Shown in pieces: positions 32,545 to 55,009 of a stretch of DNA of 64,000 nucleotides. The notes beneath the pieces are model-generated. The model did no database searches, had not been told where the DNA came from, and was given only the letters and a program-made list of their open reading frames with translations. The position numbers and the translations under genes were made by a program. Position 1 is the stretch's first letter, and every line of letters begins with the position of its first letter. This DNA is from Candidatus Omnitrophota bacterium (lineage in GTDB: Bacteria; Omnitrophota; Gorgyraeia; 2-01-FULL-45-10): contig JAUYOL010000007.1 of NCBI GenBank assembly GCA_030695905.1, forward strand, positions 6,604-70,603. The letters are read 5' to 3'.

Positions 32545-32573
32545 TTGACTAATATGAAAATATGTGATATAGT
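32545..32573 (+). promoter_or_regulatory. sigma-70-type promoter (TTGACT-N17-TATAGT)
   Basis: -35 at 32545-32550, -10 at 32568-32573; 23 nt upstream of the giant gene. Confidence 0.5.
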
Positions 32574-32596: not shown

Positions 32597-35500
32597 TTGT
32601 CTATGGGGAGAATTACCTTTTTTCTCATCGCATTTGTTTTAGCAGCATTTTCTGCTTTCTACGCAGGAGAGGCTTTCGCCGCGAACTTGAGACCTTCTAT
32701 CGGAACAATTACTCCTTCATCCGGCACCTCACCTCATGGAATAGCGGTAAATTTTACCGCCACTTATTCAGATCCCGACGGCTGGCAAAATATGCGGGAA
32801 GTCCGGCTGCTCATTAATGCTTCAGTAAACGGCGCAGATTGTTTTTATGCTTATTACGATGTCGCTACTAATAAATTATATCTGAAGAACAACGCAAATA
32901 CCGCATGGCTGGGTGGATACGATCCCCAATCTTCAAATACAATAGAGAATTCGTACGCGAAACTTAACTGTGCATCCACAACGGTATCCGGAAGCGGTAA
33001 TGCTTTAACAGTAAATTGGTCCGTAACATTTAAGCCTGCTTTCAAAGGCGTGAAGAATAGCTATCTTTATGTAAAGGATATTGCTGGTGCTTATAACGGC
33101 TGGGTCAAGAAAGGGACCTGGACGATTGCCAACAAAGCTCCTTCTGTAGGAGCTGTTACCCCTTCTTCTGGAACATCATATTCCGACCAGGCCATTAACT
33201 TTACCGCTACTTATTCCGATCCCGACGGATGGCAAAATATACAGCTTGTTCGTTTCCTCATCAATACTTCCACAAGCGGAACAAGATGCCTTTATGTGTA
33301 TTACGATCTCGCGAGCAATAAGCTCTACATCAGAAACGATGGAAATACCGCATGGCTGGGTGGATATGCTCCTCAATCTTCAAACATAATAGAAAGCTCC
33401 TATGTGAAACTTAACTGTGCTTCCACAACGGTATCCGGAAGCGATAATATCTTAACAATAAATTGGTCCGTAACATTTAAGCCTACTTTCAAAGGCGTGA
33501 AGAATGTCTATCTTTATGTAAAGGATATTGCTGGTGCTTATAACGGCTGGGTCAAGAAAGGCACGACGATAATCGCTGCGCTGCCATTGCCGCGAATAGC
33601 GACAACCGGCTTAGGTGATGCTATAGCTGGGGAGGATTATTTAGCTAGTTTGAATGCTACGGATGGAACGCCGCCATATGCATGGTCCATAGAAAGCGGC
33701 AACCTACCGAATGGTTTAAGTCTTAGCAGCGCAGGGACTATATCGGGAACTCCCGTACAGGCAGCATCCTTTAACTTTGTTATCAAAGTCACGGATTTAA
33801 ACCAGGCGACAGACACTCAAGCCCTATCTATAAATGTCCTGCCTACATTTCCGCTTATAACGGATGAAGAGCTTCTGGACCAGACAGAGGCAAAAGCCGC
33901 AATGTATTTTTATAACGAGATTTTATCTAACGGATTTGTAAAAGATACCGATTATAAGGACTTTTCGAGTATCGCGGCCACCGGTTTTGGGCTTGCATCT
34001 CTATGCGTTATGGCAGAGCGGTACCAGACTTCACCCAACTGGGTCATAACTCCGGAGCAGGCGAGAGCGCGTGTAAACCAAATATTGGACAATTGTGTAC
34101 GTTATCAGTCATATCAAGCTTTATCAGGGAATGGTTATGGTGTAGCAGGATTTCTATACCATTTCATAAAAGCGGATGGTACCCGCCAGGGCACATGTGA
34201 AGTCTCCACTATTGACATGGCGCTTTTTTTATCAGGCGCTATCGCTGCGGGTGAATATTTTGGCGGCGAAGTAAAGACAAAAGCCGATCAGATCTATAAT
34301 AGTATGAATTGGGCGTATTTTTTAAACACAGCTAAGCGCCAATTTTCGCATGGATGGTTTCCGGATAGCGGTATAATGCCTGCTACCTGGGACAGGCCCA
34401 CAGATGAGGCCATACTTGTTTCGCTCTTAGCTATAAGTGCCAATCTTAACAATTCAGATATGCTCATGACTATGTATAGTTGGCCAAGGGCGGTTGGGGA
34501 GTATGGTGGATATAGCGTTGTGAATTCTTATTTCGGCTCTTTGTTTACATATGTATTTGCCCATTGCTTCTTCGATTTTGAAAAGTTAGGCACGGATAAC
34601 CCCTCTTATGCCGGCTCAACAAATGTACCTGTTAACTGGTGGATGAATTCCGTTAATGCTGCCTATGCCAATAGGCAGTTCTGCATAGACAATGCTATCA
34701 ACTACGATTCCTATGACGAAAATAGCTGGGGCATCACAATCTGTGAATATCCATCCGGTCAATACAGTGATTTTTTGGGTGCCGCCCCATGTGAAAGCAA
34801 CTCCGCTACTCCTTATCATAACGGCACTATAGCACCATACGGCGCTATAAGCTCCATGCCGCTTATGAGAATATCTCCTGATGAAACTCCTGATATGAAT
34901 TCGGCGTTCAAGACGTTAAGGTATTATTACCAGACTTACTATCACCATCTTTGGGGTGAATACGGCCCGAAAGACTCTTTCAACCACAATAGGGAATTTA
35001 GTAACGCGTATTTAGGTATAGACGTAGGGCCGGAAGTCCTGATGATCGAAAATTACCGTTCAGGTCTTATATGGAATAATTTTATGAAGAATGGGAAGAT
35101 CCAAGCGGCAACGGCCAAGGTTTTTACCGGGAACTTGCTCGATCCTACAACTATGTATGTTGATGCATCTAACCTTAGTGATCCAGAGCAGGACGGATCA
35201 GTTATTCATCCATTCAATACAATTCAGAAGGCGATTGACAATAACAATCGAGGTTGCGTTATTGAAATAGCACCTGGAAGATATGTCGAGGGTGTTAAAA
35301 TTATTTCAAAATCTAATATAACCTTAAAAGGTGTTATCGGAGATCGCGACGATCAATTTAATACCACTGTAAATAGCGTTGTCGAATACGAATCAAATCA
35401 TGTGATAGATATAGAAGGCTCTATTAATATAGCGATTGATAGCCTTGTGATTAAACCAACTCATAATTCCTACGACCATACATTTGGAGGGGGAGGGGTA

Positions 35501-36364
35501 TACAATTTTGACTCAGATTACACGACAATTATGAATAGCATTATAACTGGCACGAGAGCTGAAAGCGGATATGGGATATCTTGTTACAGGAGCGTAAAAA
35601 TGTTGATAACTAACAACCTGATCACCAATAACAGCAATAATTATGGCGGAGGTATATATATTTACAATGATTTTACAAACAATGACATCAATGCAAATGA
35701 GCGTGCCGCAGAGATAACCAACAATGATATAATCAATAATGTTGCATGGGGCACAGGGGCCGGTATTTCTGTGACTGGCTATGAAGTAAGCGGTTATGCA
35801 AGAACCAAGATTTTAATCCGTAATAATCGCGTTTACAACAATAGTTCTGATCGCTATGCAGGCGTATATCTGAAATATTCGGAAGGAGAGGTGCAGAATA
35901 ACACAATAGTAGGCAATTGTGCTGATTGGCTATCAGGAGGCGGCGTGTCCTGTCTCTCGTCCATCATCTTGGTCTCTAACAATATAATACACAGGAATAC
36001 CGAATCCCTGCAAGGCGGGGCCGGTATATACATTTATGGCGGTGCAGTTACTGCCGCTAACAATGTGGTAACAGAAAACAATGGAATTGGAATAGGTTGC
36101 GCAGGTAACTTTACCGCGGTGTTAATGTACAACAACCTGTATGGTAATAGCAATGACTATTCTGGCTCTGTTCCTGGAACAGGGTCTATTTCAGCATCAT
36201 CTCTATTTGTTGCTTCAGATACAGACGGAGATCCATCTAATGATGATTACCATTTACAACCAGGCTCGCCGTGTATCAACGCAGGCGACCCTGCTATTGC
36301 ATACAACGACAAAGACGGCACTCGAAATGACATGGGTGTTTACGGTGGGCCTAATAGTATGTGA
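32597..36364 (+). CDS. secreted 1255-aa modular protein: two tandem ~149-aa DPDGWQN-type domains, putative Ig (He_PIG) domain, (alpha/alpha)6 glycosidase-like domain (DUF3131/putative glucoamylase-like), C-terminal right-handed parallel beta-helix repeats
   Basis: signal peptide; internal tandem duplication; NN-x-I/V-x-N PbH1 repeats; DYHLQPGSPCINAGDP end typical of beta-helix proteins. Confidence 0.85.
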   Translation: MSMGRITFFLIAFVLAAFSAFYAGEAFAANLRPSIGTITPSSGTSPHGIAVNFTATYSDPDGWQNMREVRLLINASVNGADCFYAYYDVATNKLYLKNNANTAWLGGYDPQSSNTIENSYAKLNCASTTVSGSGNALTVNWSVTFKPAFKGVKNSYLYVKDIAGAYNGWVKKGTWTIANKAPSVGAVTPSSGTSYSDQAINFTATYSDPDGWQNIQLVRFLINTSTSGTRCLYVYYDLASNKLYIRNDGNTAWLGGYAPQSSNIIESSYVKLNCASTTVSGSDNILTINWSVTFKPTFKGVKNVYLYVKDIAGAYNGWVKKGTTIIAALPLPRIATTGLGDAIAGEDYLASLNATDGTPPYAWSIESGNLPNGLSLSSAGTISGTPVQAASFNFVIKVTDLNQATDTQALSINVLPTFPLITDEELLDQTEAKAAMYFYNEILSNGFVKDTDYKDFSSIAATGFGLASLCVMAERYQTSPNWVITPEQARARVNQILDNCVRYQSYQALSGNGYGVAGFLYHFIKADGTRQGTCEVSTIDMALFLSGAIAAGEYFGGEVKTKADQIYNSMNWAYFLNTAKRQFSHGWFPDSGIMPATWDRPTDEAILVSLLAISANLNNSDMLMTMYSWPRAVGEYGGYSVVNSYFGSLFTYVFAHCFFDFEKLGTDNPSYAGSTNVPVNWWMNSVNAAYANRQFCIDNAINYDSYDENSWGITICEYPSGQYSDFLGAAPCESNSATPYHNGTIAPYGAISSMPLMRISPDETPDMNSAFKTLRYYYQTYYHHLWGEYGPKDSFNHNREFSNAYLGIDVGPEVLMIENYRSGLIWNNFMKNGKIQAATAKVFTGNLLDPTTMYVDASNLSDPEQDGSVIHPFNTIQKAIDNNNRGCVIEIAPGRYVEGVKIISKSNITLKGVIGDRDDQFNTTVNSVVEYESNHVIDIEGSINIAIDSLVIKPTHNSYDHTFGGGGVYNFDSDYTTIMNSIITGTRAESGYGISCYRSVKMLITNNLITNNSNNYGGGIYIYNDFTNNDINANERAAEITNNDIINNVAWGTGAGISVTGYEVSGYARTKILIRNNRVYNNSSDRYAGVYLKYSEGEVQNNTIVGNCADWLSGGGVSCLSSIILVSNNIIHRNTESLQGGAGIYIYGGAVTAANNVVTENNGIGIGCAGNFTAVLMYNNLYGNSNDYSGSVPGTGSISASSLFVASDTDGDPSNDDYHLQPGSPCINAGDPAIAYNDKDGTRNDMGVYGGPNSM
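32693..33586 (+). repeat. intragenic tandem duplication (2 x 447 bp), ~85-95% identical
   Basis: 32693-33139 versus 33140-33586; near-identity over ~160 bp (e.g. aaacttaactgtgc.tccacaacggtatccggaagcg...tataacggctgggtcaagaaagg). Confidence 0.9.
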
Positions 36365-36381
36365 TAGTCTAACCCTGTAGT

Positions 36382-36410
36382 TTCTAACCTGGTTAGAAGT
36401 GTCAAGTTAG
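36382..36410 (+). repeat. REP-like palindromic element (TTCTAACCTGGTTAGAagTGtCAaGTTAG)
   Basis: third copy of the motif that flanks the RAYT gene at 59.7-60.3 kb. Confidence 0.75.
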
Positions 36411-36677
36411 TAATCTCCGACGGGACAAGAGACAGCATCAGCGCTGATTAAATTCGGACAATTTTAGGGCCATTGTGCTTGTTTTCTCGTGCTGTTAAAT
36501 AACAAAAAAGTTTGTTTTAATTCGTTGAATATAGTATGTCATATGGTATTATTTAAGTAGGTAAAGAAAGTTTAAAATTTTCAAAAAACGGTTTAAGTAA
36601 ATTTATCTTCAGGAAGGGAGGTGAAAAAAATGAAGACAGAAACACTAAAAAGTAAATTCAAAAAGGAGGATATTACA

Positions 36678-37484
36678 ATGAGGAAATTGACTTTAATTTC
36701 AGTGGCTCTTGTTGTAGTGGTGTGCTTTGCCATCACTGCTCAAGCTGCTACAACAGACAAGACTGTGTCTGTAACCGCGAGTGCCAGTATCACTGGTGCT
36801 ACGTCACTGACTAAGGATGCGTCAGCGTTTACGTATGGGACGACTAATGCGGACGCGTTTCCTACAGTTCCGGCCAGTAAGAGAGTTGTGCTCACCTATT
36901 CAAGTAACTATAACCCGTGGAAGATAGACATCTACACCAACAACACGCAGATACCTACCAAGGCTTCTAACCCAACAAATGGTTCTTATGCAAAGGGCGG
37001 TTTGGTAGCCGGTTCTGTTGCGCCGTATAATACGGTTCCGCTAAAGTGGGTTGCGAAGGATCCCGTTTCTGCGGCTCCAGTAGCGTCGGCGATCAATTTT
37101 CAAACCTCATACAACTTTGTTAAGGATATAAGGGATGAAGATGATCCTGCAACGAACGTGGATAATCCGCTCACTCCTGCTATCGATGAAATTTCTAACG
37201 AGTCATGGGACACACCGATAGTGGTAGGGGGTAACACCTACAATGGAGCTTTCACAAATGGATACCCTAACGTGGCGTTTGGTCCTGTAGTAGGTGGCGG
37301 TGGTGTGTGTGTAGATCCGACAAATACAGCTTCAGGCCCGAATCAGTATAGGGGCGATCCTATAAATGGCACTATCGCGGTATATGTCGCCGGTCTGTTT
37401 ACAACAGGCGGGGTGACTCCTGCGGCACCGGCGTCGGCCGGATCTTACAGCGGCACGATCTACTTCGACCTGTATCACCCATAG
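36678..37484 (+). CDS. secreted 269-aa protein (putative fibre/surface subunit); C-terminal half homologous to the C-terminus of the 2216-aa protein
   Basis: AAGGAGG RBS 8 nt before ATG 36678 (alternative GTG/ATG starts at 36621/36630); signal peptide MRKLTLISVALVVVVCFAITAQA; mature N-terminus ATTDKTVSVTASASITGA. Confidence 0.7.
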   Translation: MRKLTLISVALVVVVCFAITAQAATTDKTVSVTASASITGATSLTKDASAFTYGTTNADAFPTVPASKRVVLTYSSNYNPWKIDIYTNNTQIPTKASNPTNGSYAKGGLVAGSVAPYNTVPLKWVAKDPVSAAPVASAINFQTSYNFVKDIRDEDDPATNVDNPLTPAIDEISNESWDTPIVVGGNTYNGAFTNGYPNVAFGPVVGGGGVCVDPTNTASGPNQYRGDPINGTIAVYVAGLFTTGGVTPAAPASAGSYSGTIYFDLYHP

Positions 37485-37585
37485 TAGCCGTATTTTTTGT
37501 TTGCAGTACGATTGTTAACGAGCGAGCCCTGTTAGAACCTTTGGTTCTGACGGGGCAGAACAAAAGTAGATAAGAGAGGATAATA

Positions 37586-38410
37586 GTGCCTGGGATGCGT
37601 ATTACAAGAATATTGGCCATTATGCTGCTTACAATGTCATGTCTGTTCTTAAGCCACAGTTCGTGCTATGCGGCTCTTGTAGTTGATCCGGAAAGCATCG
37701 AGCTTGTGGCTAGTCCCGACACCGCTACGAACGGCGTTTATAATGTTATAAACGAAGGTGGCGAGTCAGTGCACGTGTTGGTACAGCCTGAAGAATGGCC
37801 CAGATCAGCAACGCCAAAGAACGATATATCTGTTGATAAATGGCTGACTGTAACTCCGATGGAATTTGATATAGTCCCGCAGGAACGGAAAAAGGTGCAG
37901 TTCGCGATAAATCCCCCCACTAACCACGGGGGAGAATTATCGGCGATGATATTTTTCGCCACGACCTCTCCCAAAGGCATGATGAACATAACCACCAGGA
38001 ATGGCGTCTCTCTTTACGCGGCCTTCGCCGATACAATGCGCCTGGAATGTTCGATATCAGATGTTCGCATAGATAGGTTTGAGCAGAAGACAAATAGCGG
38101 CATAGTTGACAGGGGTATCGTTTTCACCATAAATGTTGAGAACAATAGCAATGTTCATATCAGGCCTACCGGCTCTATCGTGATAACGGGAGAAGACGGC
38201 AGTAAGCATGATCTGAATATCGAAAGAGGATTTCCGGCTTATGCCGGTGGAAAAGAAAGCTATCAGGTTTTGTGGGATAAAAAGGACATAACGCAGGGAA
38301 AATACGAAGCTATGATAACGCTTGATTATGGAAAGTTATATAAGCTGGACAAAAAAATAGAAAAGAAGATGAGTTTCATCGTTAAAAAAGATGGAACGGT
38401 CTCTTTTTAA
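37586..38410 (+). CDS. periplasmic two-domain beta-sandwich-like protein (possible assembly-chaperone analogue)
   Basis: signal peptide; beta-rich; ALVVDPESIELVASP...VHVLVQPEEW start reminiscent of PapD-like chaperones; no confident family assignment. Confidence 0.55.
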   Translation: MPGMRITRILAIMLLTMSCLFLSHSSCYAALVVDPESIELVASPDTATNGVYNVINEGGESVHVLVQPEEWPRSATPKNDISVDKWLTVTPMEFDIVPQERKKVQFAINPPTNHGGELSAMIFFATTSPKGMMNITTRNGVSLYAAFADTMRLECSISDVRIDRFEQKTNSGIVDRGIVFTINVENNSNVHIRPTGSIVITGEDGSKHDLNIERGFPAYAGGKESYQVLWDKKDITQGKYEAMITLDYGKLYKLDKKIEKKMSFIVKKDGTVSF

Positions 38411-38446
38411 ATGTGTGCTACACAGTAGGCTTAAGGGGATGATTAA

Positions 38447-41400
38447 TTGCGTAACCTGAGGATCGCACTTCTGGTAATAGGAACCATAGCCAGCCTTATC
38501 TCATTCAAAGATAAGGGGGTGGTGAACCTTGCGCATGACGCTAAGCCGATAGTTGCCGAAGCATATCACTCGCTTCAAAGTATGTTGCCGCCGCCGGTGG
38601 CCGCAGGTCTTTCAGCCTTATCGCGGCAAGTTATGAAAAGTCAAATCCCATCTTCAAGCAGCATTCCATCTCCGGTAGAGCTTATTGCAAATGATACCCT
38701 TGCGGATGATAATATCCAAGATATTGTAGCAGGTGCACCTGCTGACATTAAGTTGCAAAATACTGCCACCCCCGTGACCGATAACCAACAGCCCGCACCT
38801 GCCCCTGTTGAAACTATAGTTTATGGTATGACAGGTACTGTTCTGCCTGAAGATTCTACCGGCAATACTAATACCAACGCAATAACAGACAACAATAATA
38901 GTATAGAGACCTTGACGGCGCAATCCAGCCCGAGCCCGAGTAATATATTTATAGCAAGCATAACTCCTAATAGTGGCATTGCCGGAACAAGCGTTATAAT
39001 TCAAGGAGCGGGTTTCGACAGTAATTTATCAAACAATGTGGTTAAGTTTGGAAACGTTAGTTCCTCCTCCGCAACTTATGTATCTAAAAATCAGCTTCGA
39101 GCAACAATTCCACAGGGTCTTTCCGCAGGCTTTACAAATTTATCGGTAAGCGTAAACGGCACACCAAGCAATTTATTTCTTTTCGACATACTTAAAAATA
39201 CGAGTGGTAATATATTTGCAGATGACACCCAAAACATATTACCGGCAGGCCTTGCTATAACGGATTTACCCGTTGTAAGGACAGCCGATGTAGACAATGA
39301 TAACGATCTGGATTTATTTATGATTGATACCTTCTTGAGTTCGGTTTATGTTTTAATAAATGACGGTAACGGCAACTTTACTAATGAAACATCTTCCACG
39401 TTGCCCGCGATAGCCGACCCGTCATCTATTACCGATGCGGTCTTCGGGGACACGAATCAAGACGGCCATCAGGATATAGTATTGGCTTATTCAAGCGGCC
39501 AGTCTGTCAGAATCCTTTTAAATAGCGGCTTAGGGAGTTTTAGCGATGTTACTGCATTAAATCTACCAGCAGTTTCCGGGAATGCGGTTAGTCTGGATTT
39601 AGGCGATGCAAATGGTGATGGCGCGCCCGATATAATAATTGCCAACAAAAATACCAGAGATATCCTGCTTATAAACAATTCAGGCGGCGTGTTCTCAAAA
39701 GATGCCGGTTTTAATCTGCCGGGCGTAATAGATGGTAGTTCCGATATCCGATTTTGTGATTTAAATAGCGATGGCGCAGTTGATATTATTACGGCTAACA
39801 ATGAGGTGGTAGACACAAGTAGCCTGAGAAATCGTGTGTATGTAAATAATGGACTGGGTCAATTTACTGATAATACAGAGATAATGCTGCCTGGAGATAA
39901 CGAATATAGCGAAGTTCTTGATTACGGAGATGTCGATGGTGATGGTGATATCGATGTAGTAGTGGCAAACCATGACCAGAACTCAATACTTATAAATGAC
40001 GGCGCGGGCATATTTACGGATGAAACATCTGCGCGCATACCAACTAACTATTTTGTATCCAAAGATACGAAGTTAGGAGATGTTAACGGAGATGGATATC
40101 TTGACATAGTGATGCTGGGCGAAGATAAGATGTCGCTATTGATTAATGACGGACAAGGCTCATTTACGGAAGGCTCCATAAAGCTTCCGGATTATAAAAG
40201 CATACCCGCTCTCTTGGGGGGTAAGGATGTGCAGGTCGCCGATATAAACGGCGACGGCGCCCTGGATATAATAGTCGCCGGCAACTCATTGCGTTTTCTC
40301 ATAAATAGCGCTTCTAACAAAGCGCCTGTCCTGGACAGCATAGGAGACAGAAAGATCGAGTTTGGCAAAAAACTGGAGTTTAATGTAACAGGTTCAGACC
40401 CCAACGACGACGCGCTGATATTTTTAGCCGAAAATCTGCCGGACGGAGCCGCTTTCCTATCGAAAATGTTCAGGTGGGTTCCAGCCGCAAATGATATAGG
40501 CCAGCATAAAAATGTGCGTTTTATAGCAAGAGAAGATACGCCGGCGGCTTTGGAGGCCTTTGAGGATATAACCATTACCGTAGTGGGCTTGCCTCCCATA
40601 ATAGATAGCTATATACCGAAAGAGCTTGACCTGAATTTGGGTATCGGCGAAATAGTACAGTTCGGTATAATTGCGTACGATCCGACCGGCGGCGCGCTTA
40701 CATTCAAGTGGTTCTTGAACAGCGTTCAAGTAAAGTCGGTAAGCGGCTTTAAGTCTTCGCTTATATTCATAGTCCCGAGGATAGGGGAAAATATAATTGA
40801 GGCGAGGGTGGAAAACGGCACCGGCAACGATTCTGTTTATTGGGATGTAAGCGTCGGTGTTACGCAAAATAGGCCTCCTCAAATAATAGGTTATGAACCG
40901 CAGGAATCCGCCATAAACATAGATCCTAACGCCGGAGGAGCTTTTAATTTCGCGGTCACAGCGAGCGATCCCGATGTGGGCGATTCCATTTCATATACAT
41001 GGAAATTCGATGACAATGTTCTGTCCAGCGGAGCTGCTTTAAGTTCAAGCGCATTTGCCGGGTCAGCCAGTGTGGGAAATCATGCGCTGCAGGTTTCAGT
41101 AAGCGATGGGCATAATGCCGCGGTTACGCGTAGCTGGACGATCAATATTACCGTTATCCCGGCATACACCTTGACCATCAATGCGGTCAATGGCTCGGTA
41201 AGCATGAATCCCAACAAGACGACTTATTCCGCCGGTGAAGAGGTTGCGATTACCGCTACGCCGGATACCGGATATACCTTTAACAGCTGGTCAGGCGATG
41301 TATCAGGCACGACGAACCCCGCTATTATCACCATGAACGCCAATAAGACGGTCACCGCGAACTTTACCGTGATACCGCCAGTCGCAATCACAGCCTCGGC

Positions 41401-44400
41401 GCAAGCGGGCGGCTCTATCAGCCCGTCGGGTACAGTAAGTGTCGCCTATGGCACAAACCAGACATTTACAGTTACAGCCGATACAGGATACAGCATCGAT
41501 CAGGTGCTTGTAGATGGCTTGGCCGTAACCCTCTCAAACGGAACATATACCTTTAATAATGTAACGGCCGCTCACACGATCTCGGCAAGCTTTGTTTCAA
41601 GCCTCAGTATCAGTGACCAGATCATACAGAAATCTTTCAACTATTTCTGGAATGAGACCGATAATCCTGAGACAGGATTTACTCGTGACAGACTCGCAGT
41701 AAAGAGTGAAGACCGCACCGCCGCTTTTGACGTTCACTACAACAGGGCGAGCCTGGCGGCAACCGGCTTCCAATTGGCAGCCCTATGTGCGGCGGATAAT
41801 GATCCCAATATTGCCGGCACAGTCACGCATGACCAGTTAGAGGCACGGGCAACTCTGATAATGGACAAATTACTGGATATTCAAGGCAAACAAAATCCTG
41901 ATGACCAGGCCACATGGGCAAAGTGGGGCAAGGACGGGTTCTTCTATCATTTTGTTGACATAGATACCGGCGAACGTTATTCCGGATCAGAAGTTTCTAC
42001 CATTGATACGGCGATAGTCGTTGCGGGGGCTATAACAGCGGGGAATCATTTTGGAGGCGACCTTAAAAATAAGGCTATGGATATATATCGCAACGTGAAC
42101 TGGAAAGCGTTTCTTGACACGAACCCTATAGTCCTGAATCACCACGACGCAGTCAACCCATCATATAATAATATCTATCATGCATGGGATCCGGAGACTG
42201 TTGCAAACGGCGGATTTTATGGCCACTGGGATTATACGAACGAAAGTCTCATTCTGTACCTGTTGGCGACCGTTTCGCCCGCAGATAATTACGCTGTTCC
42301 GGCAGACGTGTTTTACACAATTCGACGAGAGCTTGGTAATTACGGCCAAAATAGCAATCCTATAGTAAAGTCGTGGGACGGTGCATTGTTCGAATATCAG
42401 TACACTCAGGCGTTCTTCAATTTTAAAGATGCCTCAGGCAATCCTCTATATGACGGGCAGGGAGTAAATTGGTGGGATAATTCAGTCGAGGCAACAAGGG
42501 CGAATAAGCAGTTTTGCAATTATTTTATTAATAAGTTTGCCGCCCAAGAAGATCTTTGGGGATTAACGGCCGGTTACACAGATGGCCTTAACTATGGCGT
42601 TTATGGAGCGCCGCCGGCAGGACTTGCGGTAACCGATCCCGACGGGACCGTATTCCCCGCTGCTGTCGCCGGCTCCTTGCCGTTCTTGCCGGATGAGGTT
42701 ATGCGCGCGTTAAACAAGATGAAAGAATTGTACGACGATTACAATTACCCAATATGGGGTGATTATGGTTTTGTCAACTCGTTCAAACTTGGCGGCAGTT
42801 TAAACGATACCCCGTCGCCAGTATCTATCTTCTATTGCGGCATTGATGTAGGCATTGCGCTTGTGATGGCCGAAAATCAGAAGAGCGGCCTGATATGGGA
42901 TAATTTCTCTAATTTTGAAATAGCGCCGGGGGTAACGCTGAAATCCAGAATACAGCAGATAGACGGGCTTACTACGGATAAAACACACCATCTATTTGTG
43001 GACGATATTTCTGATGTTTCCAGTTTCCATATGGGGAAGATCGATGCTGAGCACACGCAATATCAAGTCAAATTTGATTTGAATACCGTCCAGGACGATC
43101 CTTATCTATTGTCCGTGCATTCATTTATGAATAAAGAATTGCCGAGCCACGTTGTGAGTGTAGCGATCAAGGTTAATAACGCCGATCCGTTTAGCGTGGA
43201 ATTCGCGTACAATAGCGACGGGAAAGATCCTGATCTTATGAAGTATATCCCGATAGATAGCAGCGGTCTGATTGAGGGTGAAAATACTATTACGCTTGAA
43301 TGGCAGGGTGCGACAGCGAACGCCACATGGCTTGCGTGGAAGAACATTGAAGTATCGACGCCATACGAGAATAATGTGTGGTCATTTGCCAGGAACGAAA
43401 CAGTTAATCCGAAAGTGTTGTTTGGGAGCGAATACAGGGCTGATGACACGTACTTTGTTGGCGCCGCTATTTCCAGTTTCGAGCAAGCGGTAGATAAGGA
43501 TGTTGAAAATTTCACGGATATACTATTTTACACGAATACGGCTACCGCTGAATATGCCTCTCTTACATTAAAAGCCCTGGATACGCAGAAAGATGCGAAT
43601 ACAAATATACAGATATTTGTTAATAGCGCGCCCAGGTATGTGTTTAATGGTTCCGTAACACCGGCCAGCCAGATAACTACACCCGGCTTTCAATTGGTTA
43701 ACGGATGGAACAGGATAACCATTTATCATCCCGGGGTAAGCGGGGCGGCACCCGGTGAGTGGATACGCTGGGACGGCATGAGCTTGACAGCGGCCAATCC
43801 CTCAAAATTTAATCCGCCGCAAGGGTTGTCGGCAGCGTCCCTTGGTTCGGATAAGATAAATCTCAGGTGGCAGGTTGTTAATGGCATAGATGTCAGGTAT
43901 AATATTTATCGTAGTCAAGCCAAAGGAGGAGTTTATACGAAGATAAACAGCGCGCCTTTGATTTCGGCACAACATCAGGATGCGGGCCTTGCGAATAACA
44001 CCGTCTACTATTATACTGTTACGGCATATGCGGATGCCGATCCGTCTACCGAAAGCGATCGTTCAGTGGATGCTTCAAAAACAACGGGTGCTTACGATGT
44101 TGATTACAGGGATGGCAGGGATCCGAACTCTTTTGGAGGTGACTCCAGCCCCCAGTTTACATATTTCATAATGTACAGGCACGATTGGACGGATGGTGCG
44201 GTAAGAAAAGTTACGCTCAGTCCTCAGGAGTCCGGATGGATAGGGCTTGCCGGTATTAATGTAAGCCAGGCAAACGCCCTGTCAATATGGATATATGGAA
44301 CCGGTACAGAGAAGATAGAGGTGGGCCTGCAGAATGCCGGTTCCGGACCGTCAACTTTCACGGTGACAGCCAGCGCCGGATGGCAGAATTTGCAGATAAA

Positions 44401-45097
44401 ATTATCCGACTTCAGTGGTATATCGCCGGTAAATCTGGATAAATTATCCATCAAGAATATTTCGTCCGGAGCGGTAACAATATTTTTAGATGACATATCT
44501 TTCATAAACGATGCGGCCGGGACAGCCACGCTTGACGTTGCGGCGAAGAACGTCAACGATAATTTACTCTCCACGGGCATGAGTTTTGATAACGATATGA
44601 TAAATTCGTATGCTCCCGCTAACCAGTATTTGGCCGTTAGCTATAATTCTCCCAGCGCTGTGAACTGGAAGATATGGATATACACGAAAAACGATAACGG
44701 CGACCCGCAATATTTGGACGGGCAGTATAACGGCCTGATGAGCTCAGACGGCCGATCCAGAATAGCTCTTATGTGGCGCATATACCCGACGATACAACAA
44801 GGCGGCATTACATGCAGGGTGACTTCCGATGTGTACAGTGATGCCAAGATGACATGGAATTATATAAAGGACCGCAATGATTCAGACTGGGCGGCTGCGA
44901 ACCCTGCCGGTGCCGAATATTCAGTGGCGGCTTTCGGAAGGAAGAATGAATGGGCATATATCGCGCCTGTTCCGCCGGGGTTAGGTGACCGGAATCCGGT
45001 TAATAACACTTTTTACGTTTATTTAGGCGGTGAGTTTGGCTCGGCGAATCCGGGCGATTATTCCGCCAGGATATATTTTGACATTACCCATGAATAA
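38447..45097 (+). CDS. 2216-aa modular surface protein: N-terminal anchor, IPT/TIG, seven FG-GAP repeats (beta-propeller), Ig/cadherin-like domains, two InlB-B-repeat (List_Bact) domains, (alpha/alpha)6 glycosidase-like domain paralogous to the 1255-aa protein, FN3, CBM11-like domain, C-terminal subunit-like domain
   Basis: TTG start after AAGGGGATGA; FG-GAP motifs GD.NGDG..DI; GYTFNSWSGD repeats; EVSTIDTAIVVAGAITAG..FGG shared with the 1255-aa protein; C-terminus ...WKIWIYTKND...ARIYFDITHE. Confidence 0.85.
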   Translation: MRNLRIALLVIGTIASLISFKDKGVVNLAHDAKPIVAEAYHSLQSMLPPPVAAGLSALSRQVMKSQIPSSSSIPSPVELIANDTLADDNIQDIVAGAPADIKLQNTATPVTDNQQPAPAPVETIVYGMTGTVLPEDSTGNTNTNAITDNNNSIETLTAQSSPSPSNIFIASITPNSGIAGTSVIIQGAGFDSNLSNNVVKFGNVSSSSATYVSKNQLRATIPQGLSAGFTNLSVSVNGTPSNLFLFDILKNTSGNIFADDTQNILPAGLAITDLPVVRTADVDNDNDLDLFMIDTFLSSVYVLINDGNGNFTNETSSTLPAIADPSSITDAVFGDTNQDGHQDIVLAYSSGQSVRILLNSGLGSFSDVTALNLPAVSGNAVSLDLGDANGDGAPDIIIANKNTRDILLINNSGGVFSKDAGFNLPGVIDGSSDIRFCDLNSDGAVDIITANNEVVDTSSLRNRVYVNNGLGQFTDNTEIMLPGDNEYSEVLDYGDVDGDGDIDVVVANHDQNSILINDGAGIFTDETSARIPTNYFVSKDTKLGDVNGDGYLDIVMLGEDKMSLLINDGQGSFTEGSIKLPDYKSIPALLGGKDVQVADINGDGALDIIVAGNSLRFLINSASNKAPVLDSIGDRKIEFGKKLEFNVTGSDPNDDALIFLAENLPDGAAFLSKMFRWVPAANDIGQHKNVRFIAREDTPAALEAFEDITITVVGLPPIIDSYIPKELDLNLGIGEIVQFGIIAYDPTGGALTFKWFLNSVQVKSVSGFKSSLIFIVPRIGENIIEARVENGTGNDSVYWDVSVGVTQNRPPQIIGYEPQESAINIDPNAGGAFNFAVTASDPDVGDSISYTWKFDDNVLSSGAALSSSAFAGSASVGNHALQVSVSDGHNAAVTRSWTINITVIPAYTLTINAVNGSVSMNPNKTTYSAGEEVAITATPDTGYTFNSWSGDVSGTTNPAIITMNANKTVTANFTVIPPVAITASAQAGGSISPSGTVSVAYGTNQTFTVTADTGYSIDQVLVDGLAVTLSNGTYTFNNVTAAHTISASFVSSLSISDQIIQKSFNYFWNETDNPETGFTRDRLAVKSEDRTAAFDVHYNRASLAATGFQLAALCAADNDPNIAGTVTHDQLEARATLIMDKLLDIQGKQNPDDQATWAKWGKDGFFYHFVDIDTGERYSGSEVSTIDTAIVVAGAITAGNHFGGDLKNKAMDIYRNVNWKAFLDTNPIVLNHHDAVNPSYNNIYHAWDPETVANGGFYGHWDYTNESLILYLLATVSPADNYAVPADVFYTIRRELGNYGQNSNPIVKSWDGALFEYQYTQAFFNFKDASGNPLYDGQGVNWWDNSVEATRANKQFCNYFINKFAAQEDLWGLTAGYTDGLNYGVYGAPPAGLAVTDPDGTVFPAAVAGSLPFLPDEVMRALNKMKELYDDYNYPIWGDYGFVNSFKLGGSLNDTPSPVSIFYCGIDVGIALVMAENQKSGLIWDNFSNFEIAPGVTLKSRIQQIDGLTTDKTHHLFVDDISDVSSFHMGKIDAEHTQYQVKFDLNTVQDDPYLLSVHSFMNKELPSHVVSVAIKVNNADPFSVEFAYNSDGKDPDLMKYIPIDSSGLIEGENTITLEWQGATANATWLAWKNIEVSTPYENNVWSFARNETVNPKVLFGSEYRADDTYFVGAAISSFEQAVDKDVENFTDILFYTNTATAEYASLTLKALDTQKDANTNIQIFVNSAPRYVFNGSVTPASQITTPGFQLVNGWNRITIYHPGVSGAAPGEWIRWDGMSLTAANPSKFNPPQGLSAASLGSDKINLRWQVVNGIDVRYNIYRSQAKGGVYTKINSAPLISAQHQDAGLANNTVYYYTVTAYADADPSTESDRSVDASKTTGAYDVDYRDGRDPNSFGGDSSPQFTYFIMYRHDWTDGAVRKVTLSPQESGWIGLAGINVSQANALSIWIYGTGTEKIEVGLQNAGSGPSTFTVTASAGWQNLQIKLSDFSGISPVNLDKLSIKNISSGAVTIFLDDISFINDAAGTATLDVAAKNVNDNLLSTGMSFDNDMINSYAPANQYLAVSYNSPSAVNWKIWIYTKNDNGDPQYLDGQYNGLMSSDGRSRIALMWRIYPTIQQGGITCRVTSDVYSDAKMTWNYIKDRNDSDWAAANPAGAEYSVAAFGRKNEWAYIAPVPPGLGDRNPVNNTFYVYLGGEFGSANPGDYSARIYFDITHE

Positions 45098-46394
45098 TAT
45101 GAGAATGCTATATAAGAAGACCTGTATTATCGGGATTATCTTAGCGACGTCTGCCATATTTCAGCAAAATATTATGCTTGCTGCTACGGATAGGACGGTT
45201 TCTGTCGTGGGCACTGCCACGAAATCTGCGACACCCGGTCCGTTGCTCGATGACTTTAGATACGCGGCGCCCCTAAACCTATGGAGTGTTGGCACCGGCA
45301 CGTTCAGCAGCTCATTATTAGTTCCGCCACCAGCAAACGCGATTTGCACGGCGTCTTATATTAATGATTCAAATGCATATTCTGGCTATTCCATGAAGCT
45401 GGATTATAATGCTACCGCCGCGAATAGTTTCGTCGGCTATTACAGCCGGTTGGCAGCGCAGCCATTAACCGCGTATACTGCCATATCATTCTGGGTAAAA
45501 GGCGCGGTTGGCGGCGAATTTTTCAAGATACAGTTTAAAAATACCAGCACGACACCATATTCTTTTGCTGAGGGGACAGATACCTATTACTATAGTAGAA
45601 ACGAAGCCGCGGTATATATTACGGATTATCTGGACGGCGGCGTAACTACAACCTGGCGAAAGGTAACGATACCTTTTCATAATTTTGCCAATTTGGATGG
45701 GTGGAAGTCAATGAAAGAGTTTGTTGTAGTATTTGAAAATTCCCAATCTACAACTAATATAAGCGCAACAAGCGGGACAATCTATATAGACAATATTACT
45801 TTTGAAACTACGCCTGTCAGCGCGGTGCGGGTTGATCATTTTGGGGATAAGTTGGGAGTTTGTGCGTTAGGTGGTAATATGGGAACAGGAGCAGGCGACG
45901 GCGCATCGGCGAGCCTTAATAAATATAGCCTTTCGAATGCAATTAATGAATATGATCCCGGCGGATATCCTAACGGTTTAAAATTGGAGTACGATGTTAC
46001 TACCGGGTTTGCATATACATTTCTTATTTTTGGCGGGGCTAGTAACGCAAAGACGACAGTAGAACCAATAAAAGATAAAAGCGGCTGGATAGCGCTACCT
46101 CACGATTTCAGCGCTTATACAAAACTAACTCTTAGAGTAAAAGCAAAATCCGGTGCTGAAAATCCGAAACAAATAAAGATAGAATTAGTGGACAATGGAG
46201 CAGCCAGGGCTGTCATCATAGACCAGATCAGCGGCACCGACTGGCAGATCTATGAAGTACCCCTTTCCGCCTTTGCCTCTCTCGATAAAACCAGCATAAA
46301 ACAACTGACCTTTGTTTTTGAAGGCTGGCGCATAAATAGTGCCGGAGGAAGTAAAAGAGGAGTCGTTTTTATAGACTCGGTACAATTTGAGTAA
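45090..46394 (+). CDS. secreted protein with two CBM11/CIA30-like carbohydrate-binding domains
   Basis: signal peptide after MNNMRM; mature N-terminus AATDRTVSVVGTATKSA matches that of the 269-aa protein; domains ending TIYIDNITFE and VVFIDSVQFE; ORF track starts at 45030 but ATG 45090 fits the signal peptide and begins 5 nt before the upstream stop codon. Confidence 0.75.
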   Translation: MNNMRMLYKKTCIIGIILATSAIFQQNIMLAATDRTVSVVGTATKSATPGPLLDDFRYAAPLNLWSVGTGTFSSSLLVPPPANAICTASYINDSNAYSGYSMKLDYNATAANSFVGYYSRLAAQPLTAYTAISFWVKGAVGGEFFKIQFKNTSTTPYSFAEGTDTYYYSRNEAAVYITDYLDGGVTTTWRKVTIPFHNFANLDGWKSMKEFVVVFENSQSTTNISATSGTIYIDNITFETTPVSAVRVDHFGDKLGVCALGGNMGTGAGDGASASLNKYSLSNAINEYDPGGYPNGLKLEYDVTTGFAYTFLIFGGASNAKTTVEPIKDKSGWIALPHDFSAYTKLTLRVKAKSGAENPKQIKIELVDNGAARAVIIDQISGTDWQIYEVPLSAFASLDKTSIKQLTFVFEGWRINSAGGSKRGVVFIDSVQFE

Positions 46395-48851: not shown

Positions 48852-48854
48852 CTC

Positions 48855-50072: not shown

Positions 50073-50096
50073 CGTACTTAATTTTGGAGGATTGCC

Positions 50097-54349: not shown

Positions 54350-54358
54350 GTATTCGGT

Positions 54359-55004: not shown

Positions 55005-55009
55005 TTAAT

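What the first reader, a model, noticed from the sequence alone, without database searches (positions are those of the whole stretch)
32597..46394. Paralogous (alpha/alpha)6 glycosidase-like catalytic module in both giant proteins, combined with CBM11-like, beta-helix, FG-GAP propeller and InlB-B-repeat modules
The 1255-aa and 2216-aa proteins share a ~350-aa domain (compare EVSTIDMALFLSGAIAAGEYFGGEVKTKADQIYNSMNWAYFLN with EVSTIDTAIVVAGAITAGNHFGGDLKNKAMDIYRNVNWKAFLD, and ...WWMNSVNAAYANRQFC... with ...WWDNSVEATRANKQFC...). By its motif pattern it resembles the 'putative glucoamylase'/DUF3131 group that includes GH144 beta-1,2-glucanases; that assignment is inference and could not be searched here. 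The same locus adds CBM11/CIA30-like domains ending in (I/L)D(N/D/S)(I/V)xF(E/I) in both the 454-aa and 2216-aa proteins, pectate-lyase-like beta-helix repeats, an integrin-like 7-bladed FG-GAP propeller and Listeria/Bacteroides-type B-repeats. Together this is a large extracellular glycan-targeting toolkit, unusual next to an otherwise housekeeping region. In a possibly host-associated or ultrasmall bacterium it could target a partner's envelope polysaccharide.
Basis: partly seen in the sequence, partly recalled or inferred. Interest (0 to 1): 0.55.

Follow-up and report, generated by a model that had tools for sequence, protein, structure and literature searches.

The report
Surface glycosidase cluster beside secretion system
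Two large secreted proteins of an uncultivated Omnitrophota bacterium each carry an intact-looking GH144-type (beta-1,2-glucanase-like) enzyme module, and they belong to a conserved gene cluster that sits directly upstream of a type II secretion system and includes a distant relative of the Gram-positive "WxL-interacting" surface scaffold protein.

Summary
The 1255-aa (P1) and 2216-aa (P4) proteins share a ~430-aa domain (BLASTP 7e-49). Both copies match Pfam PF10091 "Glycoamylase" (about 1e-40).

The closest solved structures are GH144 beta-1,2-glucanases (XcSGL, CpSGL, BDI_3064). An AlphaFold model (pLDDT 96.6) is an (alpha/alpha)6 barrel with TM 0.8 to them. The general-acid Glu, the candidate-base Asp and the clan-defining Phe and Tyr are all present. 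The FG-GAP propeller (7 blades), InlB B-repeats, beta-helix and CBM-like modules are also confirmed.

- The locus lies directly upstream of a complete type II secretion system. A related genome has lost both together.
- The 274-aa protein (P3) is a remote homologue of Gram-positive WxL-interacting proteins (hhalign 97.5%).
- The 287-aa protein (P2) is a free copy of P4's C-terminal domain. That domain is a new, unannotated family.

The set P2, P3 and a GH144 protein recurs in Omnitrophota, an Elusimicrobiota MAG and other metagenomic contigs.

Best reading: a secreted, surface-assembled glycan-binding and glycan-cleaving complex. The enzyme family assignment is solid. Substrate, location and the docking mechanism are inferred.

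The parts
32545..32573 (+). Best sigma-70-like promoter match of the region (TTGACT-17-TATAGT with TG), 24 nt upstream of P1
   Evidence: This is a consensus match only, not evidence of function.
32597..36364 (+). P1, 1255 aa: signal peptide, two tandem ~150-aa repeats, He_PIG Ig domain, GH144-like domain, right-handed beta-helix
32681..33577 (+). P1 tandem repeat (aa 29-178 and 179-327), 74% identical, no Pfam family
33854..35116 (+). P1 GH144-like (alpha/alpha)6 catalytic domain. Candidate base is D540 (34214-34216), general acid E604 (34406-34408), plus F650 and Y723.
   Evidence: PF10091 3.8e-40. PDB best hit 8xul XcSGL 1e-28. Model pLDDT 96.6. Foldseek TM 0.80 to GH144 structures. Residue conservation.
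35144..36361 (+). P1 C-terminal right-handed beta-helix
   Evidence: PF13229 3.5e-15 and NosD 2.7e-6.
36621..37484 (+). P2, a small secreted protein. The probable start is the ATG at 36678, giving 268 aa. The mature protein is a single domain of a new family, the same domain as P4's C-terminus.
   Evidence: (100% identical to Q8R38_01620, Omnitrophota MAG).
37586..38410 (+). P3, 274 aa, secreted, two Ig-like domains. It is a remote homologue of WxL-interacting protein (DUF916 + DUF3324) without the C-terminal TM helix.
   Evidence: hhalign against 7 WxLIPs: Prob 97.5%, E 7.9e-12, 237 columns. Profile against PDB: EfmWxLIP1 5e-7. 6 of 55 family members hit PF06030. 901 relatives in the 1.84-billion representative library.
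38447..45097 (+). P4, 2216 aa. Order of modules: TIG, 7-bladed FG-GAP propeller, Ig/PKD-like, 2 InlB B-repeats, GH144-like domain, CBM-like modules, fn3, CBM-like, P2-type C-terminal domain.
39230..40306 (+). P4 FG-GAP beta-propeller with seven DxDxDG calcium-type motifs
   Evidence: PF13517 8.6e-51. Motif count.
41609..42916 (+). P4 GH144-like catalytic domain. Candidate base is D1187 (42005-42007), general acid E1266 (42242-42244), plus F1315 and Y1383.
   Evidence: PF10091 6.5e-42. PDB 8xul 2.7e-22 and CpSGL 7.6e-14. Residues. It is the best conserved part of P4 in orthologues (85% in L012, 71% in L004).
44459..45094 (+). P4 C-terminal P2-type domain (aa ~2005-2216)
   Evidence: Profile of the P2 family hits it at 2.2e-48. 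12-16 invariant columns are shared with P2.
45030..46394 (+). P5, a secreted protein made only of CBM-like modules (two of them). The likely start is near 45090-45099.
   Evidence: CBM30 28.1 bits against cutoff 27. Orthologues in L004, L008 and L013.
46494..47075 (+). 193-aa ORF with a lipobox-like LAC and an HEMAH motif. It is conserved in L013.
   Evidence: No Pfam family.
47142..58744 (+). Complete type II secretion operon: GspE, F, G, minor pseudopilins (including J and K), GspL-like (PilM+PilN), GspM/PilO, ExeA-like AAA protein, GspC, and the secretin GspD with a TonB_C tail

Best explanation
The locus encodes a secreted, cell-surface-assembled complex that binds and cleaves glycans in a Candidatus Omnitrophota bacterium.

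Shown:
- P1 and P4 each carry a GH144-family (alpha/alpha)6 domain with the full catalytic and clan signature.
- P3 is a remote homologue of WxL-interacting proteins.
- Mature P2 is a stand-alone copy of the last ~200 residues of P4.
- The order P2, P3, GH144 giant, CBM protein, then T2SS, is conserved in several related genomes.
- P2-like, P3-like and GH144 genes also travel together in other lineages.

Inferred:
- The proteins cross the inner membrane by Sec, since N-terminal signal peptides are visible.
- The adjacent T2SS moves them across the outer membrane.
- P3 docks the P2-type domains of P2 and P4, probably by inserting a beta-strand as proposed for WxLIP and WxL. This would hold the 2216-aa enzyme/adhesin on a surface, with its propeller, Ig-like and CBM modules reaching outward.
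- The GH144 modules then cleave a beta-1,2-glucan-like polymer by the inverting, substrate-assisted mechanism described for this clan. In that mechanism Glu acts as acid through the 3-OH at subsite +2, and Asp acts as base through water.

P1 is an accessory second enzyme without the docking domain.
For: GH144 assignment:
- Pfam.
- PDB sequence hits to XcSGL, BDI_3064 and CpSGL only, with none to GH162, GH189 or GH192-194.
- Fold: top nine Foldseek hits are all GH144/PF10091 structures at TM 0.74-0.80.
- E, D, F and Y are invariant or at least 98% conserved in 50 homologues. Their roles are taken from PMC12102758.
- Purifying selection: the GH domain is the best conserved segment of P4.

T2SS link:
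- A complete operon lies on the same strand 750 nt downstream.
- The same order occurs in L004, and through P5 (plus the 193-aa ORF in L013) in L008/L013; L012 and the ERZ1426817 contig end inside or just after the cassette.
- Relative L001-3 lacks window 34365-59166, which removes the rest of P1, P2-P5 and the whole T2SS in one event.

P3 as a WxLIP homologue.

P2 as the same domain as P4's C-terminus.

Cross-lineage linkage:
- L010 (Elusimicrobiota), L011, L022 and L023 each have a P2-like domain, then P3-like, with a PF10091 protein within five genes.
- L022 even repeats the window's order: GH144, P2, P3, GH144.

Literature: Omnitrophota large proteins with adhesion and carbohydrate domains next to T2SS-like loci (bioRxiv 10.1101/2023.11.21.568195). 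WxL cluster logic of small WxL, large WxL and WxLIP (PMC10599100 and PMC9772566).
Against: - No activity, localisation or expression data exist.
- Identity to characterised GH144 enzymes is only 19-24%. PMC12102758 notes that substrate-recognition residues diversify across the clan, so beta-1,2-glucan is a family-based guess.
- No GH3, GH94 or sugar-transporter genes are in the window.
- P2 is not demonstrably a WxL domain. There is no Pfam hit in 40 members and no significant PDB fold match. hhalign aligns only the 21-column C-terminal motif (Prob 64%), and the second motif has Phe where WxL has Trp.
- P3 lacks the WxLIP TM helix.
- WxL domains bind peptidoglycan, which is periplasmic in a diderm.
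- T2SS dependence rests on gene order and co-loss only.
Confidence: 0.6

Rival explanations
1. The machinery is the same, but its purpose is ordinary nutrition. The cluster would be a polysaccharide-utilisation system that harvests free environmental or exopolymer glucans, not a tool aimed at a host or prey envelope.
For: In the non-Omnitrophota versions, LacI-family regulators sit in the cluster (L010 has two, L011 has one). That is typical of catabolic sugar loci. Gram-positive WxL (Csc) clusters are also found beside glycoside hydrolase and LPMO genes (L015, L018).
Against: The window has no LacI, sugar transporter, GH3 or GH94 genes. Omnitrophota are mostly ultrasmall with host-dependent traits (PMC10066038). 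The closest relatives of P1's GH domain come from Patescibacteria (CPR) MAGs and one MAG labelled Aenigmarchaeota, some of them with dockerin.
Confidence: 0.3
2. The complex stays in the periplasm. The P2-type domains and P3 would bind the cell's own peptidoglycan, as WxL and WxLIP do. The GH144 modules would trim the cell's own periplasmic beta-1,2-glucans. The neighbouring T2SS would be unrelated.
For: WxL and WxLIP are described as peptidoglycan binders. Beta-1,2-glucans are stated in PMC12102758 to act in osmoregulation; that they are periplasmic osmoregulated glucans in Gram-negative bacteria is from my own knowledge.
Against: A 2216-aa array of TIG, FG-GAP, PKD, InlB-repeat, fn3 and CBM modules is typical of extracellular adhesins. 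The order cluster-then-T2SS is conserved in several genomes, and both were lost together in L001-3. No glucan synthase gene (cgs or opgH type) is in the window.
Confidence: 0.1
3. The GH144-like modules act on a glycan other than beta-1,2-glucan, or serve mainly as binding modules.
For: Identity to characterised enzymes is only 19-24%. Several PF10091 structures (3eu8, 4gl3, 4qt9) are deposited only as 'putative glucoamylase'. The related Group 4 protein had no detectable substrate (PMC12102758 abstract).
Against: All four signature residues are kept, including both catalytic acids, in 50 of 50 homologues. The catalytic domain is the most conserved part of P4. Every biochemically characterised GH144 member acts on beta-1,2-glucans or their oligosaccharides (BDI_3064 is from my own knowledge).
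Confidence: 0.3
4. P2 and P3 form a chaperone-and-subunit fibre system. P2 would polymerise by donor-strand exchange into a fibre or lattice that carries P4, with P3 as its periplasmic chaperone. This would replace the static WxL-like docking platform.
For: The weak fold neighbours of the P2 model are nearly all donor-strand pilins or fibre subunits: TLP-1a, CfaB, SafA, FimA, TasA and CanA. P2 and P4 end in a Gly-14, alternating-hydrophobic C-terminal strand. P2 and P5 share a conserved N-terminal strand motif, TD(K/R)TVSV. P3 is a two-Ig-domain secreted protein. Some loci have two tandem P2 genes.
Against: All those fold matches are insignificant (E >= 0.02, TM <= 0.35). No usher gene is present. 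P3's demonstrable homology is to WxLIP, not to PapD-type chaperones.
Confidence: 0.15

Closest known systems
GH144 endo-beta-1,2-glucanases (CpSGL from Chitinophaga pinensis, XcSGL/XCC2207 from Xanthomonas campestris, BDI_3064); Pfam PF10091
   Same: Same Pfam family and the same (alpha/alpha)6 barrel (TM about 0.8). The general-acid Glu, candidate-base acidic residue, and the Phe and Tyr that define the clan are all conserved.
   Different: Only 19-24% identical. The domain is embedded in 1255-aa and 2216-aa multi-module secreted proteins rather than being a single-domain enzyme or a Bacteroidetes lipoprotein. No companion GH3, GH94 or transporter genes are present. Activity is untested.
WxL (Csc) cell-surface clusters of Lactobacillales and Bacillales: small WxL, large WxL and WxLIP (DUF916-DUF3324)
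   Same: The three-part logic is the same. One small secreted protein consists only of the domain. One large protein carries the same domain at its C-terminus behind adhesin-like modules. A two-Ig-domain protein is encoded beside them. P3 is a true remote homologue of WxLIP (hhalign 97.5%). The C-terminal motif ...AGsYSgTIyFDLy resembles WxL's ...YSaaItWDLs.
   Different: The host is a diderm candidate phylum. P3 has no TM helix. The P2-type domain is not recognised as WxL by Pfam or by full-length profile comparison. The large protein carries a glycosidase. A T2SS lies adjacent. No LPXTG or sortase component was seen.
Klebsiella pul locus (pullulanase PulA encoded next to its dedicated T2SS)
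   Same: A secreted, surface-retained polysaccharide-cleaving enzyme is encoded beside a complete T2SS gene set (the comparison itself is from my own knowledge).
   Different: PulA is retained by a lipid anchor. Here retention is proposed to go through the P2-type domain and P3. The enzyme family differs.
Omnitrophota giant proteins next to T2SS-like loci (West-Roberts et al. 2023 preprint)
   Same: Same phylum and the same theme: very large secreted proteins with adhesion and carbohydrate-active modules beside T2SS genes, interpreted as prey adhesion and wall digestion.
   Different: Those proteins are at least 30,000 aa with many TM segments, and the secretion locus lies upstream. The two Omnitrophota preprints searched do not contain the word 'glucoamylase'; 'GH144' and 'WxL' were searched only in the second one and are absent there.

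Membership tests
GH144 / Pfam PF10091 (beta-1,2-glucanase clan GH-S) | Significant match to the family profile above the curated cutoff | tested here: met
   PF10091 scores 138 and 144 bits against a cutoff of 27. phmmer against PDB hits only GH144/PF10091 chains.
GH144 / Pfam PF10091 (beta-1,2-glucanase clan GH-S) | (alpha/alpha)6-barrel fold closest to GH144 structures | tested here: met
   The P1 domain model has pLDDT 96.6. The top nine Foldseek hits are GH144/PF10091 at TM 0.74-0.80. GH189, GH192, GH194 and GH162 rank lower. The P4 domain was not modelled.
GH144 / Pfam PF10091 (beta-1,2-glucanase clan GH-S) | General-acid Glu (CpSGL E211 / XcSGL E239) | tested here: met
   P1 E604 and P4 E1266 align to it. 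It is invariant in 50 of 50 homologues.
GH144 / Pfam PF10091 (beta-1,2-glucanase clan GH-S) | Acidic residue at the candidate general-base position (CpSGL E142) | tested here: met
   P1 D540 and P4 D1187 occupy it (the D of EVSTID). Asp is also found there in GH192 and GH194 enzymes. It is invariant in 50 of 50 homologues.
GH144 / Pfam PF10091 (beta-1,2-glucanase clan GH-S) | Clan-defining Phe (XcSGL F286) and Tyr (XcSGL Y367) | tested here: met
   P1 has F650 and Y723; P4 has F1315 and Y1383. Each is conserved in 49 of 50 homologues. For P4, MAFFT places the Tyr one column off, while HMMER aligns it to CpSGL Y330.
GH144 / Pfam PF10091 (beta-1,2-glucanase clan GH-S) | Inverting hydrolysis specific for beta-1,2-glucan | not testable with these tools
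   This needs enzyme assays.
GH144 / Pfam PF10091 (beta-1,2-glucanase clan GH-S) | Placement inside GH144 in a CAZy/dbCAN model or clan phylogeny | not tested
   No dbCAN library or clan tree was available. The only indication is indirect: the best hits are GH144 members.
WxL (Csc) surface cluster | A WxLIP protein (DUF916 + DUF3324 tandem Ig-like domains) encoded in the cluster | tested here: met
   P3 family against 7 genuine WxLIPs: Prob 97.5%, E 7.9e-12, both domains aligned. PDB EfmWxLIP1 at 5e-7. 6 of 55 relatives hit PF06030. P3 alone has no Pfam hit.
WxL (Csc) surface cluster | C-terminal transmembrane helix on WxLIP | tested here: not met
   P3 ends ...FIVKKDGTVSF with no hydrophobic stretch. 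The hhalign alignment stops at template position 300 of 345.
WxL (Csc) surface cluster | A small protein that is only the domain, plus a large protein with the same domain at its C-terminus | tested here: met
   P2 and P4 aa 2005-2216 share the domain (2.2e-48; invariant columns). The same holds in L004 and L008.
WxL (Csc) surface cluster | That shared domain is a WxL domain (PF13731, two Trp-x-Leu motifs) | tested here: inconclusive
   No Pfam WxL hit in 40 members. hhalign against 9 small WxL proteins gives Prob 64%, E 6.8e-5, over only the 21 C-terminal columns, and 7% when large WxL proteins are added. The motifs here are W-x-[ILM] and F-D-L. No WxL structure was found in the PDB to compare folds.
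WxL (Csc) surface cluster | Occurrence in low-GC Gram-positive bacteria, with peptidoglycan binding on the cell surface | tested here: not met
   The source is a Candidatus Omnitrophota MAG with BamD, Lnt and a secretin. Peptidoglycan binding itself is not testable here.
T2SS with adjacent cargo genes (pul-type arrangement) | Complete T2SS gene set next to the cargo, on the same strand | tested here: met
   GspE, F, G, J, K, L-like, M-like, C and D at 47142-58744. GspE follows the cassette in L004; the other orthologous contigs end before that point.
T2SS with adjacent cargo genes (pul-type arrangement) | Cargo carries Sec-type signal peptides | tested here: inconclusive
   N-terminal hydrophobic segments with AxA-type sites are visible in P1, P2, P3 and P5. 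The P4 N-terminus could be a signal anchor. No signal-peptide predictor was available.
T2SS with adjacent cargo genes (pul-type arrangement) | Secretion depends on that T2SS | not testable with these tools
   There is only indirect support. One deletion removed both the cargo genes and the T2SS in L001-3.

The most novel reading that the evidence does not exclude
WxL-type surface clusters are not a Firmicute speciality. They would be one branch of an old, cross-phylum system in which a WxLIP-like scaffold docks enzymes through a C-terminal WxL-like domain. In diderm candidate phyla (Omnitrophota, Elusimicrobiota and others) the docked enzyme is always a GH144 glycosidase. In Omnitrophota the complex would be exported by a dedicated T2SS and used to attach to other cells and cut their beta-1,2-glucan-type envelope or periplasmic glucans. 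If so, this also speaks to what Gram-positive Csc/WxL clusters are for, namely carbohydrate capture.
Probability: 0.25. Interest if true: 0.75.

Novelty: new variant of a known kind. Interest (0 to 1): 0.5.

Why it matters
On its own, the catalytic module is one more member of a well-described enzyme family. The more useful result is the company it keeps.

A WxLIP homologue and a new docking-type domain are tied to GH144 enzymes in at least three lineages of uncultivated diderm bacteria. In Omnitrophota the set is also tied to a type II secretion system.

- This gives a concrete, testable candidate for how ultrasmall, probably host-dependent bacteria display large enzyme/adhesin proteins.
- It extends the WxLIP family far beyond the Gram-positive orders to which it has been assigned.
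- It supplies independent comparative evidence that WxL-type clusters are linked to carbohydrate processing.

Tried and rejected
- An exact look-up of the window's SecA found nothing. The source was identified instead through P2, which is 100% identical to an Omnitrophota MAG protein.
- NCBIfam gave nothing useful for P1-P5.
- The P2 family profile against PDB sequences gave nothing. The P2 model against PDB folds gave nothing significant. A Pfam scan of 40 members gave only spurious N-terminal hits.
- A profile search of the word-indexed protein collection with the P2 alignment added only a few fragments.
- A scan of 185,579 species genomes found only three loci. The P2 family's true size is therefore unknown.
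- The CBM11 assignment was rejected in favour of a borderline CBM30 / 'CBM-like' assignment.
- A chaperone-usher reading was considered and kept only as a low-probability rival. There is no usher and the fold matches are insignificant.
- PMC12537917 was checked as a possible source of the WxLIP crystal structures. It only mentions DUF916 in passing.
- Promoter and terminator scans gave no more than consensus matches.
- The window's insertion-versus-deletion history was resolved in favour of a deletion in the relative. The relative keeps a truncated GH144 fragment that ends before the catalytic Glu, plus the 3' end of the last T2SS-operon gene.

Full report
**1. What is at the coordinates**

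Five + strand ORFs fill 32597-46394:
- P1, 32597-36364, 1255 aa.
- P2, 36621-37484, 287 aa. The real start is probably the ATG at 36678, giving 268 aa.
- P3, 37586-38410, 274 aa.
- P4, 38447-45097, 2216 aa.
- P5, 45030-46394, 454 aa. The real start is probably near 45090.

P1 and P4 share one long domain: BLASTP 7e-49, about 30-33% identity, over P1 aa ~420-829 and P4 aa ~1049-1487.

**2. The shared domain**

- Both copies match Pfam PF10091 'Glycoamylase' well above threshold (3.8e-40 and 6.5e-42).
- Against all PDB sequences, the only significant hits are GH144/PF10091 proteins. They are XcSGL/XCC2207 (1e-28 and 2.7e-22), BDI_3064, CpSGL and three 'putative glucoamylase' structures.
- A model of the P1 domain built from 50 homologues is very confident (pLDDT 96.6, pTM 0.95). 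Its nine best structural neighbours are the same GH144/PF10091 entries at TM 0.74-0.80. GH189, GH192, GH194 and GH162 follow at lower scores.

Nakajima et al. 2025 (PMC12102758) define the clan by three residues: a Glu that acts as general acid through the 3-OH of the glucose at subsite +2 (XcSGL E239 / CpSGL E211), a Phe near the nucleophilic water (F286/F268), and a Tyr stacking at subsite -3 (Y367/Y330). They propose the acidic residue equivalent to CpSGL E142 as the base.

The HMMER alignments and a 50-sequence alignment give the equivalents below.

| Role | P1 | P4 | Conservation in 50 homologues |
|---|---|---|---|
| Candidate base (Asp) | D540 | D1187 | 50 of 50 |
| General acid (Glu) | E604 | E1266 | 50 of 50 |
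| Clan Phe | F650 | F1315 | 49 of 50 |
| Clan Tyr | Y723 | Y1383 | 49 of 50 |

For P4's Tyr, MAFFT is one column off, while HMMER aligns it to CpSGL Y330.

The domain is a GH144-type glycosidase module and looks catalytically competent.

In orthologues of P4, the GH domain is the most conserved segment. In L012 it is 85% identical, against 50-55% for the propeller and Ig parts. In L004 it is 71%, against 51-56%. This argues for an enzyme under selection.

Substrate cannot be read from sequence. Identity to characterised enzymes is only 19-24%, and the clan paper stresses that substrate-recognition residues diverge between groups.

**3. The other modules**

Pfam confirms the following:
- TIG.
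- A seven-bladed FG-GAP propeller, with seven DxDxDG motifs.
- PKD-like Ig domains.
- Two divergent InlB B-repeats.
- fn3.
- He_PIG.
- A right-handed beta-helix in P1 (PF13229, 3.5e-15).

The 'CBM11-like' modules are better described as CBM30 or 'CBM-like'. P5 just passes the CBM30 threshold, and P4 aa 1490-1790 hits PF14683. P5-to-P4 similarity is weak.

**4. Organism**

P2 is 100% identical to hypothetical protein Q8R38_01620 of a Candidatus Omnitrophota MAG. The nearest GH-domain relatives are also Omnitrophota proteins. The window carries BamD, Lnt, MurJ and a secretin, so the cell is diderm. Omnitrophota are mostly ultrasmall and predicted to be host-dependent or predatory (PMC10066038).

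**5.

The locus is not stranded among housekeeping genes. Upstream are RF2, SecA, Lnt, a 218-aa protein and a TPR protein. Downstream on the same strand, after a 193-aa ORF, lies a complete type II secretion operon (47142-58744). It has GspE, F, G, minor pseudopilins including J and K, a GspL-like PilM+PilN fusion, GspM/PilO, an ExeA-like ATPase, GspC and the secretin.

The order SecA, Lnt, 218-aa, TPR, P2, P3, P4, P5 recurs in several related metagenomic genomes: L004/L005, L008/L013, L012 and an ENA contig. In L004 GspE follows P5 directly, and in L013 the 193-aa ORF follows P5; the other contigs end before that point.

A further relative, recovered three times independently (L001-L003), keeps the upstream genes. 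It then jumps from window position 34365 to 59166. That leaves a truncated GH144 fragment ending before the catalytic Glu, and the tail of the last T2SS-operon gene. This is a single ~24.8-kb deletion that removed the rest of P1, P2-P5 and the whole T2SS together.

P1 is absent from the other relatives, so it is an accessory addition to a conserved core of P2-P5.

**6. P3**

P3 has no Pfam hit on its own. An exhaustive HMMER search of 1.84 billion representatives found 901 relatives (245 at or below 1e-10). Those listed are mostly about 220-320 aa, with a few shorter fragments, and most match over nearly their full length.
- Six of 55 sampled members hit PF06030 (WxLIP_PGBD, formerly DUF916). 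One hits PF11797 (WxLIP_HBD, formerly DUF3324).
- The family profile hits the solved EfmWxLIP1 chains at 5e-7 over both domains.
- I fetched seven genuine WxLIP proteins from annotated Enterococcus, Lactococcus and Lactobacillaceae plasmids. A profile-profile comparison gave probability 97.5%, E 7.9e-12, with 237 aligned columns spanning both Ig-like domains.
- Cross-controls gave about 1%.

P3 is therefore a remote WxLIP homologue. It lacks the C-terminal TM helix.

**7. P2 and the C-terminus of P4**

The mature P2 protein aligns end to end with the last ~200 residues of P4, with 12-16 invariant columns. The P2 family profile hits the P4 C-terminus at 2e-48. It also hits the C-termini of the orthologous giants in L004 and L008.

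The family has about 60 clusters and no Pfam domain. All named members are from Omnitrophota. There is no PDB sequence hit. A fairly confident all-beta model (pLDDT 86) has no significant fold match.

This is exactly the layout of Gram-positive WxL (Csc) clusters: a small protein that is only the domain, a large protein with the domain at its C-terminus behind adhesin modules, and a WxLIP (PMC10599100 and PMC9772566).

Whether the P2-type domain is itself a diverged WxL domain is unresolved:
- Pfam finds nothing.
- hhalign against nine small WxL proteins aligns only the C-terminal motif...PAsAGsYSgTIyFDLy against ...PgtqkAksYSaaItWDLs. That is 21 columns, probability 64%, E 6.8e-5.
- The second motif has Phe where WxL has Trp.

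**8. The module travels with GH144 genes**

In every locus with enough sequence, a P2-like domain lies directly upstream of the P3-like gene, and a PF10091 protein lies within five genes.

| Locus | Gene order |
|---|---|
| Omnitrophota cassette | P2, P3, P4 (GH144), P5 |
| L010 (Elusimicrobiota MAG) | HhH+P2-domain protein, P3-like, Malectin-PF10091-discoidin protein, further proteins, CBM30-like protein |
| L011 | P2-like fragment, P3-like, 372-aa ORF, protein with an N-terminal P2-like domain, 317-aa ORF, LacI, PF10091, CBM11/CHU_C protein |
| L023 | PF10091, HhH+P2-domain protein, P3-like |
| L022 | GH144 protein, P2-like, P3-like, GH144 protein (the same order as the window) |

Three further loci (L006/L007, L009, L014) end at a contig edge just after the start of the gene that follows P3 (P4-like by similarity in L014, FG-GAP-bearing in L006).

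**9. Most likely mechanism**

Shown:
- Two GH144-type catalytic modules with intact signatures.
- A WxLIP homologue.
- A shared new domain on P2 and P4.
- Conserved linkage of these with each other and, in Omnitrophota, with a T2SS.

Inferred:
- Sec export, then T2SS-mediated passage across the outer membrane.
- P3 docking the P2-type domains, probably by strand insertion as predicted for WxLIP and WxL.
- Surface display of P4 with its propeller, Ig and CBM modules as reach and binding elements.
- Inverting cleavage of a beta-1,2-glucan-like polymer.

Whether the target is a free polymer or the envelope or periplasmic glucan of another cell is open. The LacI regulators in the Elusimicrobiota-type loci point to nutrition. 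The Omnitrophota lifestyle, and the CPR (plus one Aenigmarchaeota-labelled MAG) affinities of P1's domain, point to a partner cell.

**10. Comparison and novelty**

The catalytic module is a new member of a known family. NCBI already names its relatives 'glucoamylase family protein'. Large adhesion and carbohydrate-active proteins next to T2SS-like loci in Omnitrophota have been reported.

I did not find the following described:
- The GH144 identity of such modules in this phylum.
- A WxLIP homologue outside the Gram-positive orders to which the family has been assigned (PMC10599100 states 'almost entirely' Lactobacillales and Bacillales).
- Its constant association with GH144 genes.
- The P2-type domain.

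The word 'glucoamylase' is absent from both Omnitrophota preprints I searched; 'GH144' and 'WxL' were searched only in the 2026 preprint and are absent there too. No paper in the library that came up combines GH144 with Omnitrophica.

I therefore rate the whole as a new variant of a known kind, with moderate interest.

Noticed in passing
window 34365-59166, compared with L001-L003: A related genome, seen in three independent assemblies, lacks this ~24.8-kb block. It keeps a GH144 fragment truncated before the catalytic Glu (P0034, 393 aa). Its version of window 59824-63855 is also inverted.
   Followed up: yes
window 56753-58744: The T2SS secretin (GspD) carries a C-terminal TonB_C domain (PF03544, 2.7e-9, aa 586-650). 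As far as I know this is not part of the usual secretin architecture.
   Followed up: no
window 45090-45200 and 36744-36790: The mature N-terminus of P5 (ATDRTVSVVGTA) resembles the strongly conserved mature N-terminus of P2 (ATTDKTVSVTASA). The L008 orthologue of P5 has a similar motif. It may be a shared strand for docking or sorting.
   Followed up: partly
window 46494-47075: A 193-aa ORF lies between P5 and GspE. It has a lipobox-like LAC and an HEMAH (HExxH) motif and matches no Pfam family. It is conserved in L013 (54% identity) but absent from L004.
   Followed up: partly
window 32681-33577: P1 begins with two tandem ~150-aa repeats that are 74% identical (motif ATYSDPDGWQN). They match no Pfam family.
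   Followed up: partly
P0003, P0015, P0023 and others: The closest relatives of P1's GH domain (48-60% identity) include proteins from Patescibacteria (CPR) MAGs, some fused to dockerin, and one MAG labelled Aenigmarchaeota. This suggests a GH144 subfamily shared among ultrasmall lineages.
   Followed up: no
L008/L013 (CAZHPY010000008.1): This contig has the same synteny as the window, and its SecA is 90% identical. Its record is titled 'uncultured Planctomycetia bacterium', while the window's own protein is filed under Omnitrophota. One of the labels is probably wrong.
   Followed up: no
L015 (E. faecalis plasmid) and L018 (E. faecium plasmid): Genuine Gram-positive WxL clusters on these plasmids sit next to a lytic polysaccharide monooxygenase gene; in L015 a glycoside-hydrolase-domain protein is also nearby, and its large WxL-cluster protein is annotated 'pectate lyase-like adhesive domain'. 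This parallels the enzyme link seen here.
   Followed up: no
L010 6985-7941 and L023 4863-5852: Outside Omnitrophota, the P2-like domain is fused behind a helix-hairpin-helix (PF12836) N-terminal region. The same Pfam family is also found in this window's GspK.
   Followed up: no
window 40001-46000: GC content is higher across P4 (0.46-0.49) than in the flanking regions (0.41-0.43).
   Followed up: no
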